A DNA stretch of 64,000 nt from Escherichia coli (GTDB taxonomy: Bacteria > Pseudomonadota > Gammaproteobacteria > Enterobacterales > Enterobacteriaceae): NCBI RefSeq assembly GCF_024223415.1, contig NZ_CP100500.1; one strand, 5' to 3'. A model generated the notes under the pieces. The model did not search any database. It had not been told where the DNA came from and worked only from the letters and a program-made list of their open reading frames with translations. Below, piece by piece: positions 7,809 through 14,298 of this stretch. Position 1 is the first letter of the stretch. Every line of letters starts with the position of its first letter. Position numbers and translations under genes: made by a program.

Positions 7809-7985
7809 ATGTCAACCAATGACAACAAAAAAGAAAGATTTTCCGTACAACTACGCCTAGACGCAGATTTGTTCGAGCGTTTAAGTATTGCCATGAAAGA
7901 AGATGGCGACGATAACCGATCTGGATGGATCAAAAGGCTTTTACGACGCGAATTAGATAAACGCGGCATTGAGTCAAAAAGCTGA
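7809..7985 (+). CDS. Ribbon-helix-helix (CopG/Arc-like) DNA-binding protein (58 aa)
   Basis: Predicted beta strand then two helices (ERFSVQLRLDADLFERLSIAMKEDG...WIKRLLRREL) typical of RHH regulators; SD-like agagg upstream. Confidence 0.45.
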   Translation: MSTNDNKKERFSVQLRLDADLFERLSIAMKEDGDDNRSGWIKRLLRRELDKRGIESKS

Positions 7986-8202
7986 CAGCCAACCAGCAAG
8001 CCAGCACACTGATCACATTGCCCACCAGCCGCAAATGTGGCATTGTTGGTGATGCTTTTGTTTTCCCTTGTTCCCACTGGCGACCCTTTTGCGGTCGCCT
8101 TTGTTTTGCCTGTTATCCGGCAATTGTGGCGCTTCGCCACACGGTTTATATAACCCCACTGCTCAGATTCATTTTTTGCGCAGTAGGTTAATTGTTCGCA
8201 AG

Positions 8203-8231
8203 GGCGGCTCCTTATCGGGGCCGCTTTTTTC
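8203..8231 (+). terminator. Intrinsic terminator (+ strand) ending the small-ORF transcription unit
   Basis: Hairpin gcggctcc/ggggccgc at 8204..8223 followed by TTTTTT. Confidence 0.5.
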
Positions 8232-8256
8232 GTGTTTGTCATATCTGTGATACCCG

Positions 8257-8463
8257 TTAAGCAGCCGTTCCGCGTGCTTCCTGTTCGCGTTCTTTCTGCC
8301 AGGCCAACACATCATCCTCATACCATCCGCGACGGCGTAAACCAACGCGAAAACCCTGCGGAAATTCTCCGGCGTTGATCATGCTTTGCAGCGTGCTGTC
8401 TGCCTTGATGTGGATAATTTTTTTTACTTCCTGGCGAAAGATAATTTTTCTGATTGCTTCCAT
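8257..8463 (-). CDS. AlpA-family HTH regulator/excisionase-like (68 aa)
   Basis: Pattern R..V......T.....N....P......R..GW.E..V..W matches my recollection of CP4-57 AlpA; located next to the integrase. Confidence 0.6.
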   Translation of the reverse strand: MEAIRKIIFRQEVKKIIHIKADSTLQSMINAGEFPQGFRVGLRRRGWYEDDVLAWQKEREQEARGTAA

Positions 8464-8594
8464 CGTGATTTACCTTGTGAATCCGGTGTATTCCGGTGAC
8501 AAATACGGTAAATCATCGGATATGGGTAAAAACAGTTCCCACCGTTTTTAAACGGTATACACCGTTTTTTATATTGATGATTTGAAATGGAATT

Positions 8595-8620
8595 ATAAAA
8601 AAAGCGGCATTTCTGCCGCT
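8595..8620 (-). terminator. Intrinsic terminator after the 83-aa ORF
   Basis: Hairpin gcggcatttctgccgc at 8604..8619 followed on the minus strand by a 7-nt T run. Confidence 0.5.
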
Positions 8621-8630
8621 TCCAGGATTG

Positions 8631-8882
8631 TTACCGCCATTTTTTGGGCCTGCCTCCGATCTTCATAGATGCCGGACGTACGACCTTATCAATACTTACC
8701 GCCAGATTTCTGGAAGCGCCACGGGATACCAGAAAATCTACTACCTGTTTTTTTGATGGGGCCGTCGTCCTGTCCTCCGGATCGTAGGTTGACCAAAATT
8801 CATGCTGAACCATCAGGGCCAGTTGCAGCCCGTCGCAATTGCATCTGATATTTTTTTGCATCTTAACGGTTTCATGTTTCAC
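8631..8882 (-). CDS. Hypothetical protein (83 aa)
   Basis: ORF between int and alpA; basic C-terminus (GGRPKKWR); no family recognised. Confidence 0.3.
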   Translation of the reverse strand: MKHETVKMQKNIRCNCDGLQLALMVQHEFWSTYDPEDRTTAPSKKQVVDFLVSRGASRNLAVSIDKVVRPASMKIGGRPKKWR

Positions 8883-8959
8883 GGCCTTGTCGTTAAATTT
8901 GATGCAATTATACGACGGTTTTACATGGTTTTCGTAGTTTTTACTGGTTTTCTGTACAG

Positions 8960-10201
8960 CTACACGGCTCGGATACCCCTTTTACCACTGGCGAGGGTTA
9001 CGCCCGTCGCCGCAGCCTCGACAAATTCGCCCCACCAGCGCATCAGCACGATGCGTTTTTCTATGTAGTTGCTCCGGTTGTATGCCCGTCTAACTTCGTT
9101 GGTGTCGACGTGGGCAAGTGCCGCCTCTATTACGTCCGGCTCGAATCCTTCCTCGTTCGCTGCTGTGCTGAATATGGCGCGTAATCCATGAGACACCAGC
9201 ACGCCAGCGAATCCCATACGCCGCAATGCTGCGTTAGCTGTCTGGCTGTTCATCGGCTGCTGTGGGTCTTTCAGACTTGGGAAAACGTAATTGCGGTGGT
9301 GGCTGATTGGTTTCATGGCCTCCAGCACCGCCATAGCCTGACCGGAAAGCGGGATAACGTGATCCCTGCGCATCTTCATGCGTCCGGCAGGTATCGTCCA
9401 TTGCTTCGCGTCCAGGTTGATTTCATCCCACCGCGTTGATGACGCTTCGGCGGGACGGGTTACGGTCAGTAACTGCCATTCAATCAGTAATCTGGTCTGC
9501 CGTTCTGTTGCCGATACTGATAAAGCCTGCATAAGCTCGGGCAGCTGTTCGGGGCGGATTGTTGGCATATGTTTTTTTACAGGTGAGGGAAACGCCTTAC
9601 GCACATTCATAGCCGGATTGGCATCAATCAGCCCACTGTTGGCGGCGTAATCCATTACCTCATTAACGCGCTGTAAAACCCGCTTGAGTGTTTCCAGGTT
9701 GCCGCGCTCCTTGATGGGGGTAAGCACTTCAACGAACCTTCGGGCGGTGAGGGTATCTATTGGCGTGTTGCCGATGAACGGGAATACATATTTATCCAGC
9801 GAACGCCAGATGTCTTTAATCGTGTTGGGGGCCAGATTCTGGCTGATTTTCACCTGGTACCATGCCGCCGCCACATTTTCGAACGTGTTCCCTTGTCTTC
9901 GGGCCTCTGTCTCTCTTTTTTGCCTCTCGTGGTCCTGCGGGTCAGTTCCGGCACTGATTAACGTCCTGTACTCGCTACGGCGTTTTCTGGCATCAGCCAG
10001 GGAAACATCTTCAAGCGATCCAAAACTCAGCAATATTCTTTTTTTGTCCGATGGTCGGTAGTAGGAAAATCTCCAGAGTTTTGATCCAGACGGTTTGACC
10101 AGGAGAAAAAGCCCTCCGCCGTCCTGCAGGGTGTACTCCTTTTGCGCTGGTCTGGCTGCTTTGATCTGCACTGTGGTTAATGGGTGTGTTTTTCTCGCCA
10201 T
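8960..10201 (-). CDS. int: Tyrosine recombinase/integrase, P4-type with N-terminal arm-binding domain (about 413 aa)
   Basis: N-terminus (YxLxDGGGLxLxVxPSGSKxWRFxYR) typical of P4-family integrases; catalytic C-terminal domain; about 220 bp from the tRNA-Pro 3' end. Start trimmed to the second Met. Confidence 0.85.
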   Translation of the reverse strand: MARKTHPLTTVQIKAARPAQKEYTLQDGGGLFLLVKPSGSKLWRFSYYRPSDKKRILLSFGSLEDVSLADARKRRSEYRTLISAGTDPQDHERQKRETEARRQGNTFENVAAAWYQVKISQNLAPNTIKDIWRSLDKYVFPFIGNTPIDTLTARRFVEVLTPIKERGNLETLKRVLQRVNEVMDYAANSGLIDANPAMNVRKAFPSPVKKHMPTIRPEQLPELMQALSVSATERQTRLLIEWQLLTVTRPAEASSTRWDEINLDAKQWTIPAGRMKMRRDHVIPLSGQAMAVLEAMKPISHHRNYVFPSLKDPQQPMNSQTANAALRRMGFAGVLVSHGLRAIFSTAANEEGFEPDVIEAALAHVDTNEVRRAYNRSNYIEKRIVLMRWWGEFVEAAATGVTLASGKRGIRAV

Positions 10202-10234
10202 ATGTCTATGATTCCACACGAAAAAACAGGGTTT

Positions 10235-10286
10235 TAGTTATACGGCTTTAGTTATACGTCAGCCCGTATAACTAAACGTATAACTA
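10235..10286. repeat. Symmetric repeat array between int and tRNA-Pro
   Basis: TAGTTATACG at 10235 and 10249, inverted CGTATAACTA at 10265 and 10277, giving a 52-bp dyad. Confidence 0.4.
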
Positions 10287-10419
10287 AAAAATCCGGCTGA
10301 TAGCTTATAAATCCGGTGATGTTCGGTGACTAAAAAACATAAAAAAACCCGCCAATCAAGTGATTAGCGGGTTATCCCTGTCTTATCCGGTGCTTTCCGG
10401 TGATATCCGGTGGGCGATT

Positions 10420-10496
10420 TGGTCGGCACGAGAGGATTTGAACCTCCGACCCCCGACACCCCATGACGGTGCGCTACCAGGCTGCGCTACGTGCCG
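10420..10496 (-). tRNA. proL: tRNA-Pro (anticodon GGG)
   Basis: Reverse complement reads CGGCACGTAGCGCAGCCTGGTAGCGCACCGTCATGGGGTGTCGGGGGTCGGAGGTTCAAATCCTCTCGTGCCGACCA, which matches E. coli proL from memory. Confidence 0.9.
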
Positions 10497-10570
10497 ACTC
10501 GTGGCTGTTAATACTACCGTTTTCCACACCGATTGCAAGTAAGATATTTCGCTAACTGATTTATAATTAA

Positions 10571-12331
10571 TCAGTTAGCGATAAAACGCTTCTCGTCTGT
10601 CAGTACTTGCAATAACAAACTTAACTGTGGTTTTTCATCTTTCACTCTTTCACCACGTAAGTTGTAAGTGCGGTATTTACCGTTATTGTTCAGCACCAGC
10701 GTCTTTTTCGGGGTGGTAATTGCCAGCGTATCGTTATCCGCTGCGGTAACCCAGTAATGACGGCGTTGAGGGTTGAACAAATCCTGACCTTGCGAATATT
10801 CGCTGGCAGGTGTGCTGACATGTAGCAGGCGTTGCATCAGCGTCGTCATCAGATCGGTATGATCAGTCAGCGCATTAATACGCTGCGCCGGCGTGCCTGG
10901 CCAGTGAATCACTAATGGCACCTGCAGGTGACCGTGGGACCAGTCAAAGGTTTCTTCCTCTTCGCTCAGTGGAATACCCCGACCGGCAGTGATAATCACC
11001 ACCGTATTGCCCAGTTTGCCAGAATCACGCAGTGCATTGAGCACGCGGTTGATCTGGTCATCGACATTGCCTGCCGCCCGGCTATATTTCCGTGCAAATG
11101 CCTGCTGATTGCTGTCGTCAATGTTGGTGCCATTGAAAGAGACCCACGAGAACCAGCGGTTATCTTCTTGTGCGTAGCGTCCCAGCCAGTTGATCCACTG
11201 CGTGGCGGTCTGCTCGTCGGATTGGGTGCGTACGCTCGGCATCGAGAAATCTGACAACAATGCCTGACGATAAAGCGGACTGGTAAAGCCATCTGACGAG
11301 AATAGGCCCAACTGATAGCCTTGCTGGTTGAGAGCGGTAATTAACGCCGCAGGCGTACGGGTCGACAGAATGCCGTCCATATAGCTCGGTGAGATGCCAT
11401 AGAACAGGCCAAAGATGCCGTTGTCTGTAGTGTTGCCGGAGCTCATATGGCGCGTGAACGAAATATTTTGCTCAGCAAAACCTGCCAGCGCAGGCATCTG
11501 CTTCTCGAAGCGTGAGTAGTTCAGGCCATCGACAGTAATCAACAAGACATTCTGCCCGGTGCCCATATCGCGATAGCGCAGTTCGCTTAACGGATACTGA
11601 ACGGAAACGGCGTCTGGATTACCTTGCTCAATAAGACGGCGTTGATACTCCTGTGCATCAAGCAGGCCATGCTTTTCAAGAAAACGTCGCGCCGTCATCG
11701 GGTACGAAAGCGGCAGGTTAGCGCGCTGCATGGTGATCGGGCGATAGAAGTTGGCATCGGCCCAGATATACACCACATGCGAGGCGATAAAGGCGATAAA
11801 TAAGAATGCGGCCAGCGGACGCGCGAAGCGCCGACGACGCGTCAGGCTGCGCAGCTTTTGCCAGCTCCACGTCGCAAACACCAGTTCAAGCAATAAAATA
11901 ACCGGCACGCTGATGAACATCAGCTGCCAGTCGCGCGCCATCTCATTTTCGTCTGGGTTGATAACCAGTTGCCAGACGATGGGATTAAGATGGAGATGGA
12001 AACGAGTAAAGACTTCGCTATCGATCAGTAATAGCGTCATTCCCGCCGTTGCCAGAATGACGGACAAAAACCTCATCAGCCTCTGGGAGCCGACGATAAA
12101 GGTCAGCGGGAAGAGGATCAGCAAGTAGGTGGCGAACACCAGGAAGCTGAAATGGCCGATAATGCTTACGTAGGAATAAATGCGACCAGCAAGCGTGGTC
12201 GGCCAGTCGGCGATAAACAGGTAACGGCTGCCAATGACGAGCGAAAGCAGAATATTGAACAGTGCAAACCAGTGCCCCCAACTGACCATCTGGGAGACTT
12301 TTTCACGGTAGCGCTGACGATGAGTTACCAT
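10571..12331 (-). CDS. yejM: Inner-membrane protein YejM/PbgA (586 aa)
   Basis: Translated ORF recognised as E. coli YejM; conserved synteny with proL. Confidence 0.9.
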   Translation of the reverse strand: MVTHRQRYREKVSQMVSWGHWFALFNILLSLVIGSRYLFIADWPTTLAGRIYSYVSIIGHFSFLVFATYLLILFPLTFIVGSQRLMRFLSVILATAGMTLLLIDSEVFTRFHLHLNPIVWQLVINPDENEMARDWQLMFISVPVILLLELVFATWSWQKLRSLTRRRRFARPLAAFLFIAFIASHVVYIWADANFYRPITMQRANLPLSYPMTARRFLEKHGLLDAQEYQRRLIEQGNPDAVSVQYPLSELRYRDMGTGQNVLLITVDGLNYSRFEKQMPALAGFAEQNISFTRHMSSGNTTDNGIFGLFYGISPSYMDGILSTRTPAALITALNQQGYQLGLFSSDGFTSPLYRQALLSDFSMPSVRTQSDEQTATQWINWLGRYAQEDNRWFSWVSFNGTNIDDSNQQAFARKYSRAAGNVDDQINRVLNALRDSGKLGNTVVIITAGRGIPLSEEEETFDWSHGHLQVPLVIHWPGTPAQRINALTDHTDLMTTLMQRLLHVSTPASEYSQGQDLFNPQRRHYWVTAADNDTLAITTPKKTLVLNNNGKYRTYNLRGERVKDEKPQLSLLLQVLTDEKRFIAN

Positions 12332-12350
12332 AACCTGTTATCTGTTTCCC

Positions 12351-12578
12351 TTAGTGCGCTTTGTCTTCGTTGATAGAGGACTGTAAGGCGCGGGCAAAAG
12401 AGTTGGCAATTGCCTGGCGTTGGGCCGGGGCAATGCTGGTGTTGATAAGGTTAGTGACCATGTTGCCTAACACCATCAGGGAAAGGTCGGTCGGAGCCTT
12501 ATGTTTTTCCAGTACGTTGAGCAGCTCTGCGAGCAATTGTTCAACCTGTTCATCACTGTAGCGGGAAATTTGTGGCAT
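12351..12578 (-). CDS. yejL: UPF0352 protein YejL (75 aa)
   Basis: Translated ORF recognised as E. coli YejL; synteny. Confidence 0.85.
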
Positions 12579-12759
12579 AAATCGAAATCAGTTAGTTGAT
12601 GAAAGGGCAACATATTACCGTAGCAACGGTTTTTTTTCTGCTTTTTTATGCGTTAAATCATTCTCGTTACGCTGCCTTCTGTAAAATGACCGCCATCTTT
12701 TATTGCGTCGCTTAACCGGCGGTGGTTGAATACCGCCCGGTCTTAAAGGAGAGTTTATC

Positions 12760-13767
12760 ATGAGTCTGGATATCAACCAGATTGCTCTGCACCAGCTTAT
12801 CAAGCGTGATGAGCAGAACCTTGAGCTGGTGTTGCGCGATTCATTGCTGGAACCGACAGAAACCGTCGTTGAGATGGTGGCAGAACTGCATCGGGTCTAT
12901 AGCGCCAAAAATAAAGCTTACGGCTTGTTTAGCGAAGAGAGTGAACTGGCGCAGACGCTGCGCTTACAGCGTCAGGGCGAAGAGGACTTTCTGGCATTTA
13001 GCCGCGCGGCAACCGGTCGCCTGCGTGACGAATTAGCGAAATATCCTTTTGCTGACGGTGGATTCGTGCTGTTTTGCCACTACCGTTATCTGGCGGTGGA
13101 GTATCTGCTGGTGGCAGTTCTGAGCAACCTGAGCAGTATGCGCGTTAACGAAAATCTCGACATCAACCCAACCCATTATCTTGATATCAATCATGCGGAT
13201 ATTGTTGCGCGTATCGATTTAACCGAATGGGAAACCAATCCAGAGTCGACCCGCTATCTCACTTTCCTGAAAGGGCGAGTAGGGCGCAAAGTGGCGGATT
13301 TCTTTATGGATTTCCTCGGGGCCAGCGAAGGATTGAACGCGAAAGCGCAAAACCGTGGGCTGTTGCAAGCGGTTGATGATTTCACTGCCGAAGCACAACT
13401 GGATAAAGCAGAGCGACAGAACGTGCGCCAGCAGGTTTATAGCTACTGTAATGAGCAGCTGCAGGCAGGCGAAGAGATCGAACTGGAATCGCTGTCGAAA
13501 GAGCTGGCAGGCGTCAGCGAAGTGAGCTTCACGGAGTTTGCGGCTGAAAAAGGCTACGAACTGGAAGAGAGCTTCCCGGCAGACCGTAGCACACTGCGTC
13601 AGTTGACGAAGTTTGCCGGTAGCGGCGGTGGCTTGACTATTAATTTTGATGCGATGCTGTTGGGCGAACGGATTTTCTGGGATCCGGCGACCGATACCCT
13701 GACTATTAAAGGCACGCCGCCGAATTTGCGCGATCAATTGCAGCGCCGGACGTCCGGCGGCAATTAA
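12760..13767 (+). CDS. yejK: Nucleoid-associated protein NdpA/YejK (335 aa)
   Basis: Translated ORF recognised as E. coli YejK; synteny. Confidence 0.9.
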
Positions 13768-13860
13768 TCGGTTTTGTGTTATGAATGCCAGATGCGGCGT
13801 GAACGCCTTATCTGGCCTGCAAAAAATAGCAATATCGTAATCAGGCATAATCTGCAGATA

Positions 13861-13891
13861 CAAAAAACCCCGCCGGAGCGGGGTTTTTTAC
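13861..13891. terminator. Bidirectional intrinsic terminator between yejK and rplY
   Basis: Hairpin ccccgccggagcgggg flanked by an A run and a T run. Confidence 0.7.
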
Positions 13892-13905
13892 AACTTATTC
13901 AGCAA

Positions 13906-14298
<393 letters not shown>

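What the first reader, a model, noticed from the sequence alone, without database searches (positions are those of the whole stretch)
10235..10286. Symmetric repeat array between int and the tRNA
Two direct TAGTTATACG copies are followed by two inverted CGTATAACTA copies, forming a 52-bp dyad about 20 to 70 bp upstream of the integrase start. It looks like a multi-site protein-binding module, for example an int promoter operator or core-type recombination sites.
Basis: seen in the sequence. Interest (0 to 1): 0.45.

Follow-up and report, generated by a model that had tools for sequence, protein, structure and literature searches.

The report
Integrase arm-binding repeats of a satellite island
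The four-copy repeat next to the integrase gene is real and is most likely the set of accessory ("arm-type") docking sites that this mobile island's integrase uses to fold its attachment site and probably to throttle its own gene, an ordinary and well-known design first described for phage P4.

Summary
Four exact copies of a 12-mer, TTTAGTTATACG, lie at 10233-10288: two direct and two inverted, 32-87 bp upstream of the int ATG at 10201.

They are not core-type sites. A copy of the island inserted in adeP places strand exchange in CACGA (10427-10431), inside the 3' end of tRNA-Pro and about 140-195 bp from the array.

The array belongs to the int-side arm of the attP of an ~11 kb PICI/P4-like satellite integrated at proL. 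Two more copies, with the same 12-bp spacing and orientation, sit 61 bp from the core at the far end of the island.

The motif changes in concert in all copies on both arms in related islands. In a natural mosaic it follows the integrase N-terminal arm-binding domain, not the AlpA-like protein.

Phage P4 (Int 34% identical) has the same layout, annotated in GenBank as "attP arm sequence repeat".

Most likely function: arm-type Int binding sites for intasome assembly. They also occupy most of the only space available for the int promoter, so negative autoregulation is likely, as shown for P4, KplE1 and PAI I536.

This is a new member of a known kind and of low interest.

The parts
10277..10288 (-). 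Arm repeat 1. It reads TTTAGTTATACG on the int-coding (-) strand and is the copy closest to the core. Together with repeat 2 it forms a tandem pair with 12-bp spacing, in the same orientation as the pair on the far arm.
10265..10276 (-). Arm repeat 2 (TTTAGTTATACG on the - strand).
10259..10264 (.). Central 6-bp spacer of the dyad (TCAGCC on +). It varies among otherwise identical arrays (GGCTGA, GGCTGG, GACTCG, GTCCAG in int orientation), so it is not part of the recognised sequence.
10247..10258 (+). Arm repeat 3, inverted relative to repeats 1 and 2 (TTTAGTTATACG on the + strand).
10233..10244 (+). Arm repeat 4, inverted, and the copy closest to int (31 bp before the ATG).
10291..10328 (-). 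Second repeat family: three co-oriented CCGG-type 8-mers (ATCCGGCT 10291-10298, ATCCGGTG 10311-10318, GTTCGGTG 10321-10328 on +). They are candidate sites for the AlpA-like RDF/regulator. The copy abutting the array (AACCGGATTTTT) is the most conserved flank.
   Evidence: assignment is inferred
10346..10373 (-). Intrinsic terminator carried by the island, downstream of tRNA-Pro. It insulates int from tRNA read-through. Its hairpin contains an exact IHF consensus, AATCAAGTGATTA, at 10354-10366.
   Evidence: a GC-rich hairpin plus T-run is present at this position in L003, L005-L007, L009, L073, L075 and L076 but not in L004
10385..10412 (-). Three more CCGG-type 8-mers at 10-bp phasing (10385, 10395, 10405), adjacent to the core.
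10420..10434 (.). att core: TGGTCGGCACGAGAG, the last 15 nt of tRNA-Pro, supplied by the island after integration. Strand exchange is mapped to CACGA at 10427-10431.
10420..10496 (-). tRNA-Pro(GGG), proL, the integration target.
8960..10201 (-). P4-family tyrosine integrase with an N-terminal Arm-DNA-bind_3 domain (residues 8-95), a central domain and a catalytic domain.
8257..8463 (-). 68-aa AlpA-like HTH protein, the candidate excisionase/regulator.

Best explanation
The array is the int-proximal cluster of arm-type integrase-binding sites in the attachment site of a PICI/P4-like phage satellite integrated at proL. Reading in the direction of int, the reconstructed attP is as follows. First comes a far-arm tandem pair (TTTAGTTATACG TTTGGTTATACG). 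Then come 61 bp, the 15-bp core CTCTCGTGCCGACCA (the tRNA-Pro 3' end), and 131 bp. That 131-bp stretch holds two triplets of CCGG-type repeats and a terminator with an IHF consensus. Then come a tandem pair, 6 bp, an inverted tandem pair, 31 bp and the int ATG. The integrase is heterobivalent. Its C-terminal domains act at the core, and its N-terminal Arm-DNA-bind_3 domains bind these 12-mers, so the arms are bridged to the core and an intasome forms for integration and excision (inferred by analogy with lambda, P4 and KplE1). In the integrated state the four-site cluster stays next to int. It occupies most of the 140 bp between the island's terminator and the ATG, where the int promoter must be, so bound Int probably also represses its own transcription (inferred). 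Shown here: the repeats exist, they lie inside the mobile unit and far from the crossover, they occur on both arms, and they co-vary with the integrase. Inferred: physical binding, use in recombination, and autoregulation.
For: (1) Int carries PF13356 Arm-DNA-bind_3 (E 4.6e-23), PF22022 and PF00589. (2) The ends of the island are fixed by a copy inserted in adeP. Intact adeP reads ...GTCACCACGATAGAAACC.... The junctions read ...GTCACCACGA|GAGTAGTTTAATTG... and ...GATTTGGTCGGCACGA|TAGAAACC.... So the whole int-tRNA spacer is island DNA and exchange occurs in CACGA. (3) Two further copies, CGTATAACCAAA CGTATAACTAAA, lie 61 bp inside the far end of the island in every E. coli island examined (L001, L002, L015, L016). 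In a tandem-satellite junction equivalent to attP they face the core as predicted. (4) The motif changes in concert. Islands whose Int is 82% identical (L073; L076, same type, int interrupted by IS21) carry TAGCTAYACG in all proximal copies (2 direct plus 3 inverted) and in both far-arm copies. In Rosenbergiella (Int 68% identical) the motif is TAGGACTAG, arranged 2+2. In a Klebsiella ssrA element (54%) it is TTTAGGCACCT, arranged 1+1. In Trabulsiella (44%) it is AATGAGTGTA, arranged 2+1. (5) A natural mosaic discriminates between candidate binding proteins. L015 has an AlpA-like protein 93-97% identical to the L073/L076 type (78% to the window's) and the L073-type 76-aa protein. Its Int N-domain, however, is 90.5% identical to the window's, and its array and far-arm pair are the window type. 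(6) The P4 GenBank record X51522 annotates 12-nt 'attP arm sequence repeat' features with the same layout: a tandem pair, 53 bp, the core, 112 bp, a tandem pair, 15 bp, then an inverted copy over the int start. Int is 34% identical to P4 Int. (7) tRNA and int are co-oriented with the tRNA first (the 'STI' shape) and the spacer is 218 bp. Panis et al. 2010 (PMC2951348) predicted and verified autoregulation for this class and reported it for P4 Int. Chitto et al. 2020 (PMC7286903) showed it for PAI I536 IntI.
Against: No binding or recombination data exist for this integrase. No sigma-70 promoter passes a consensus scan in the spacer. The best positionally conserved candidate in relatives (-35 TTTACA, -10 TACGKT at the junction of repeats 1 and 2) is weak in the window's island (CTATCA / TACGTT), so overlap between promoter and sites is not established. 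The mosaic test rests on one recombinant lineage. The role of the inverted pair is unknown: it could serve recombination, autoregulation only, or both.
Confidence: 0.8

Rival explanations
1. The array is an operator for a dedicated island regulator, either the AlpA-like HTH protein or the 76-aa protein encoded between int and alpA. That regulator would switch int transcription on or off, as AlpA activates intA (slpA) of CP4-57 (recalled from Kirby, Trempy and Gottesman 1994, not checked here).
For: The array lies immediately upstream of int. An AlpA-like excisionase/regulator is encoded 500 bp downstream of int. Symmetric multi-site operators are typical of HTH regulators.
Against: Two further copies lie at the far end of the island, about 10 kb from int when integrated but 61 bp from the core in attP. 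An int operator would not need them. In the mosaic island L015 the AlpA-like and 76-aa proteins are of the L073 type, yet the array is the window type and follows Int. No copy of the motif lies in front of any other island gene. A separate CCGG-type repeat family is available for the HTH protein.
Confidence: 0.08
2. The palindrome acts as nucleic-acid structure: an RNA hairpin in the int leader (attenuator, stability or translation control) or a DNA cruciform.
For: The - strand RNA folds into a long hairpin of -32.5 kcal/mol with z = -5.2. A T-run follows 8 nt after the stem. P4 int is reported to show short 5' transcripts (recalled from Piazzolla 2006, not checked here).
Against: The fold is a trivial consequence of 2+2 inverted repeats. 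The far-arm pair has no inverted partner. Relatives have unequal numbers of direct and inverted copies (2+3 in L073, 1+1 in L075) and unequal spacings that would bulge a stem. The T-run is not conserved. Substitutions are the same base change in every copy, which preserves a binding motif whether or not pairing matters. It is unknown whether transcription starts upstream of the array.
Confidence: 0.05
3. The repeats are core-type recombination sites where strand exchange occurs.
For: Inverted symmetry superficially resembles core-site pairs.
Against: Exchange maps to CACGA at 10427-10431 within the tRNA 3' end, 139-194 bp from the array, both at proL and at the secondary site in adeP. The array is carried intact inside the element in every insertion.
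Confidence: 0.01

Closest known systems
Phage P4 'attP arm sequence repeats' (GenBank X51522 features; Pierson and Kahn 1987, cited in PMC7286903)
   Same: The units are 12 nt. A tandem pair with 12-bp register sits on each side of the core, both pairs in the same orientation. The far-arm pair is about 55-60 bp from the core and the int-side pair about 110-130 bp. There are additional inverted copies next to the int start, and int is transcribed away from the core. 10-bp-phased (T)CCG-type repeats fill the stretch between the int-side pair and the core. The integrase family is the same (34% identity).
   Different: The motif is unrelated (TTTAGTTATACG versus WTGGGGGCATM). Here there are two inverted copies, all four copies are identical, and the result is a near-perfect 56-bp dyad; P4 has one inverted copy overlapping the start codon and degenerate copies. 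The target is tRNA-Pro rather than tRNA-Leu. The core is 15 bp rather than 20 bp. The island carries a terminator within the arm.
KplE1 (CPS-53) attL: IntS arm-type P' sites and TorI sites overlapping the intS promoter (Panis et al. 2010, PMC2951348)
   Same: tRNA and int are co-oriented ('STI' shape). The int promoter lies inside the att arm. Arm-type sites and RDF sites are interleaved there. The consequence is negative autoregulation of int with RDF input.
   Different: IntS is not a close relative. The number and orientation of sites differ. In KplE1, binding and repression were measured; here they are only inferred.
Lambda attP arm-type sites P1, P2 and P'1-P'3
   Same: A heterobivalent integrase binds arm sites on both arms, with IHF and RDF sites between the arm sites and the core. 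This rests on established knowledge; PMC2951348 introduction.
   Different: Lambda int is not transcribed from within the arm. Lambda has no head-to-head four-site cluster. The N-domain family is different.
PAI I536 IntI (P4-like integrase) autoregulation and IHF control (PMC7286903)
   Same: It is a P4-family integrase of an E. coli island that represses its own promoter, and IHF acts in the same region.
   Different: No arm-site array is described in the passages read. The island and target are different.

Membership tests
Arm-type binding sites of a heterobivalent tyrosine integrase (attP arms) | The cognate integrase has an N-terminal arm-DNA-binding domain | tested here: met
   PF13356 Arm-DNA-bind_3, residues 8-95, E 4.6e-23
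Arm-type binding sites of a heterobivalent tyrosine integrase (attP arms) | The sites lie inside the mobile element, in the att arms, away from the crossover | tested here: met
   The adeP insertion and the proL junctions place exchange at 10427-10431, and the array is 139-194 bp away inside island DNA
Arm-type binding sites of a heterobivalent tyrosine integrase (attP arms) | Copies are present on both arms of attP | tested here: met
   A far-arm pair lies 61 bp from the core in L001, L002, L015, L016, L073 and L076 and in the attP-like junction of L026
Arm-type binding sites of a heterobivalent tyrosine integrase (attP arms) | The site sequence tracks the integrase rather than other element proteins | tested here: met
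   The motif changes in concert with Int divergence. In mosaic L015 the array follows the Int N-domain, not AlpA or the 76-aa protein
Arm-type binding sites of a heterobivalent tyrosine integrase (attP arms) | The Int N-domain physically binds the sites and they are required for recombination | not testable with these tools
   Needs EMSA or footprinting and att-mutant recombination assays
Autoregulated int promoter overlapping attL (Panis 'STI' class) | tRNA and int are co-oriented with the tRNA first, and the spacer is long enough to hold an att arm | tested here: met
   Both genes are on the - strand and the spacer is 218 bp (10202-10419), within the 208-228 bp mean interval reported
Autoregulated int promoter overlapping attL (Panis 'STI' class) | The RNA polymerase site overlaps the Int binding sites | tested here: inconclusive
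   The consensus scan finds no promoter. A PWM candidate with its -10 at the junction of repeats 1 and 2 is conserved in position in relatives but weak here. The terminator at 10346-10373 confines the promoter to 140 bp, 56 of which are the array
Autoregulated int promoter overlapping attL (Panis 'STI' class) | Int represses its own promoter | not testable with these tools
   Needs a Pint reporter with and without Int
Core-type recombination sites | The sites flank the point of strand exchange and are shared with attB | tested here: not met
   Exchange occurs in CACGA at 10427-10431. The motif is absent from the adeP target site (L077) and from the chromosomal flank sequences at the proL and adeP junctions

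The most novel reading that the evidence does not exclude
The head-to-head 2+2 cluster is more than a recombination arm. It could be a self-contained docking platform that satisfies all four N-domains of one Int tetramer on a single arm. That closed complex would repress int and compete with arm-to-core bridging. The AlpA-like protein, bound to the adjacent 10-bp-phased CCGG repeats, would then have to remodel it to license excision. This would be a switch between autorepression and recombination built into the att arm of P4-family satellites. The extra inverted copies (1 in P4, 2 here, 3 in L073 and relatives) would tune this switch.
Probability: 0.12. Interest if true: 0.45.

Novelty: new member of a known kind. 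Interest (0 to 1): 0.2.

Why it matters
The result gives a complete, testable attP map for a satellite integrase found in 283 of 5,426 complete E. coli genomes, including Nissle 1917 and ATCC 25922. The map contains the core, six arm sites, candidate RDF sites, an IHF site and an insulating terminator. It could be used to engineer proL-targeted integration vectors or to study satellite excision control. The concerted motif changes, set against changes in the N-domain, provide a small natural data set on the arm-site specificity of Arm-DNA-bind_3 domains. Conceptually it adds nothing new to site-specific recombination.

Tried and rejected
(1) The consensus promoter scan of 9900-10700 found nothing. 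A PWM scan gave only weak, ambiguous candidates in the window's island, so I do not claim a mapped promoter.

(2) A literature search for the 10- and 12-mer strings found only unrelated hits. I found no prior description of this specific array in the held library.

(3) Most IMG/VR relatives start exactly at the int ATG, so they gave no upstream sequence. Only L020, L026 and L028 were usable, and L072 has an IS element inserted upstream.

Covariation on both arms could therefore be tested only within E. coli (the L073/L076 type versus the window type).

(5) Pfam and NCBIfam did not reach threshold for the 68-aa protein (Pfam AlpA E 0.0035, below cut-off). PHROGs 66 and 2790, 'excisionase and transcriptional regulator', did.

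(6) The IHF consensus inside the terminator is exact here and in L073 but absent in the Pantoea/Rosenbergiella-type terminators, so it is only suggestive.

(7) The RNA-hairpin reading was considered and set aside; see the rival explanations.

Full report
OBSERVATION. Reading 9700-10700 and running repeat detection shows four exact copies of TTTAGTTATACG. On the + strand they lie at 10233-10244 and 10247-10258. As reverse complements they lie at 10265-10276 and 10277-10288. The 10-mer has no other exact copy in the 64 kb window. The unit is therefore 12 nt, not 10. The array spans 56 bp. The spacings are 14 bp, then a 6-bp centre, then 12 bp.

CONTEXT. tRNA-Pro(GGG) lies at 10420-10496 on the - strand. 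To its right are yejM, yejL, yejK, rplY and radD, so this is the E. coli proL locus. To its left is an integrase gene (8960-10201, - strand) with three domains: Arm-DNA-bind_3, Phage_int_M and Phage_integrase.

- After int come a 76-aa ORF and a 68-aa AlpA-like protein. The latter matches PHROGs 66 and 2790, 'excisionase and transcriptional regulator'.
- Further genes are Icd-like, RepA helicase, SSB, PerC, ProQ, major capsid and head decoration.
- This is an ~11 kb PICI/P4-like phage satellite. The window begins inside it.
- E. coli GF4 (locus L002, offset +4000) carries the same island with 2 mismatches in 10,420 bp.
- The 221-bp int-tRNA spacer occurs in 283 of 5,426 complete E. coli genomes, including Nissle 1917 and ATCC 25922.

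WHERE RECOMBINATION HAPPENS.
- In strain S19-651 a copy of the island is inserted in adeP.
- Intact adeP reads GTCGTCACCACGATAGAAACC.
- The two junctions read GTCGTCACCACGA-GAGTAGTTTAATTG and GATTTGGTCGGCACGA-TAGAAACC.
- Exchange therefore occurs within CACGA, which is window 10427-10431.
- The attP core is TGGTCGGCACGAGAG (10420-10434), identical to the tRNA-Pro 3' end.
- The whole spacer 10202-10419 is island DNA.
- At proL the far junction carries a decayed copy of the same core.
- The array is thus 139-194 bp from the crossover, so the core-type reading is excluded.

COPIES ON THE OTHER ARM. Sixty-one bp inside the far end of the island, L002 3258-3281 reads CGTATAACCAAA CGTATAACTAAA. These are two more copies with 12-bp spacing, in the same orientation as the core-proximal pair 10265-10288. 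The same pair is present in Nissle (L001), JNEC-KY177 (L015) and the adeP insertion (L016). In L026 two satellites lie in tandem. Their junction, which is equivalent to attP, reads: far-arm pair, about 60 bp, CTCTCGTGCCGACCA, the 131-bp arm, then the array. An operator that served only int would have no reason to be duplicated at the far end of the element. Arm-type sites are expected on both arms.

COVARIATION.
- Islands at proL whose Int is 82% identical (L073; L076, same type, int interrupted by IS21) carry TAGCTACACG / TAGCTATACG in two direct and three inverted proximal copies. They carry the same variant in both far-arm copies.
- The alignment of spacers shows that the same T-to-C change is present in every copy, while the central spacer is free to vary.
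- More distant relatives keep the architecture but have other motifs. Edwardsiella, Pantoea and a MAG (Int 75-78% identical) have TAGYTATAC, with a further inverted copy over codons 2-5.
- Rosenbergiella (68%) has TAGGACTAG arranged 2+2, plus an exact intragenic copy.
- A Klebsiella ssrA element (54%) has TTTAGGCACCT arranged 1+1, and Trabulsiella (44%) has AATGAGTGTA arranged 2+1.
- N-domain beta-strand residues differ in step with the motif classes.

WHICH PROTEIN BINDS THE ARRAY. L015 is a natural mosaic. Its AlpA-like protein is 93-97% identical to the L073/L076 type and only 78% identical to the window's. Its 76-aa protein is also of the L073 type. Its Int N-domain, however, is 90.5% identical to the window's, and its array and far-arm pair are the window type. 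The motif follows Int and not the other two proteins. This rests on a single recombinant lineage.

COMPARISON WITH P4. GenBank X51522 annotates 12-nt 'attP arm sequence repeat' features. In int orientation they are:
- a pair at 4174-4151;
- the core at 4097-4078, 53 bp further on;
- a pair at 3965-3942, 112 bp further on;
- an inverted copy at 3926-3915 over the int start;
- an intragenic copy at 3632-3621.

The layout matches the present element, which runs: pair, 61 bp, core, 131 bp, pair, 6 bp, inverted pair. The two integrases are 34% identical. P4 also has 10-bp-phased (T)CCG repeats between its int-side pair and the core. These parallel the six co-oriented CCGG-type 8-mers here (10291-10328 and 10385-10412). 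In L015 the core-proximal part of this second family resembles the L073 type, as its AlpA does. This weakly suggests that these repeats are the sites of the AlpA-like protein.

REGULATION.
- A strong intrinsic terminator on the int strand (10373-10346) follows the tRNA. Most relatives examined (not L004) carry a GC-rich hairpin plus T-run at the same position. The int promoter must therefore lie within the 140 bp from 10345 to 10204, and the array fills 56 of those.
- The terminator hairpin contains an exact IHF consensus at 10354-10366.
- No consensus promoter is found in the spacer.
- A PWM scan finds a positionally conserved candidate in relatives, with -35 TTTACA just upstream of the array and -10 TACGKT at the junction of repeats 1 and 2. 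It is weak in this island.
- Panis et al. 2010 showed that integrases whose promoter lies in the att arm (tRNA first, same orientation) are negatively autoregulated. They noted the same for P4 Int, citing Piazzolla 2006. PAI I536 IntI behaves likewise.
- Autoregulation through this array is therefore likely but remains inferred.

ALTERNATIVES. The RNA hairpin (-32.5 kcal/mol) follows trivially from the inverted repeats. It is not supported by the unpaired far-arm copies or by the unequal copy numbers in relatives. An AlpA operator is disfavoured by the mosaic island and by the far-arm copies.

VERDICT. The array is a real, non-random and conserved protein-binding array. It is best explained as the arm-type Int sites of the satellite's attP (confidence about 0.8), probably doubling as the int autoregulatory operator (about 0.6). 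It is a new member of a well-known kind, and interest is low.

Noticed in passing
window 10291-10328 and 10385-10412: There is a second repeat family: six co-oriented CCGG-type 8-mers (ATCCGGTG-like on +), in two triplets with 10-bp phasing, between the array and the core. Its position is conserved in relatives, and P4 attP has (T)CCG repeats in the equivalent place. They are candidate sites for the AlpA-like excisionase/regulator.
   Followed up: partly
window 10346-10373 (- strand): The island carries its own intrinsic terminator just downstream of the tRNA it rebuilds. The native terminator stays at the far junction (L002 about 3147-3180). The hairpin contains an exact IHF consensus, AATCAAGTGATTA, at 10354-10366.
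   Followed up: partly
window 4335-4548 (L002 8335-8548): Iteron-like repeats (TTTTRCTMCCCACTTTTT, three copies about 84 bp apart, plus CCCCAC runs) lie just downstream of the RepA-helicase gene (- strand; window 4546-5961). This is probably the satellite's replication origin.
   Followed up: no
L002 3763-3835 and 4288-4360 (right arm = window 288-360; left arm lies before the window start): A 73-nt inverted repeat (84% complementary) flanks a 452-bp AT-rich, gene-free segment that contains ATGTCCGGTT / TTTTTGCACA..TCCGGTT repeats. It sits where the Nissle 1917 version of the island has a small-terminase gene. It could be an invertible or inserted element, or a packaging site.
   Followed up: no
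window 6455-8242 (- strand): A 595-aa ORF is annotated in RefSeq as 'Icd-like'. It has an odd, low-complexity-looking translation and overlaps a YlcI/YnfO-like gene on the opposite strand (7572-7985). In Nissle the same region holds several small genes. The call is probably over-extended.
   Followed up: no
L016 (E. coli S19-651, NZ_CP075852) 5502-14221: A copy of the satellite is inserted in the adeP coding sequence at a secondary site (CACCACGATAGAAACC) that shares 10 of the first 13 core positions with attP (alignment by eye). This genome has three places matching the int-tRNA spacer.
   Followed up: partly
L026 (IMG/VR UViG_2695420855_000011) 1-8050: This is a tandem satellite array. An internally deleted copy (the first 423 bp of int fused to the helicase region) is followed by a full copy. 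The junction reproduces attP.
   Followed up: partly
L020, L028 and L006, upstream of the island: Only the 3' half of tRNA-Pro (from the anticodon loop, CATGGGG...) precedes the satellite, with unrelated DNA before it. This suggests that a second element, one that targets the anticodon loop, is integrated in tandem.
   Followed up: no
L005/L006 3091-3099; L074 (P4) 3621-3632: An exact extra copy of the arm motif lies inside the int coding region in Rosenbergiella (codons about 31-33, GLVLL). This parallels the intragenic 'attP arm sequence repeat' annotated in P4. The E. coli island has none.
   Followed up: no
L075 about 850-872 (Klebsiella 'phage' Kp4865-2): Two direct copies of TGGCGACAGA lie just upstream of a partial tmRNA gene. 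They probably belong to the att arm of a different, neighbouring element.
   Followed up: no
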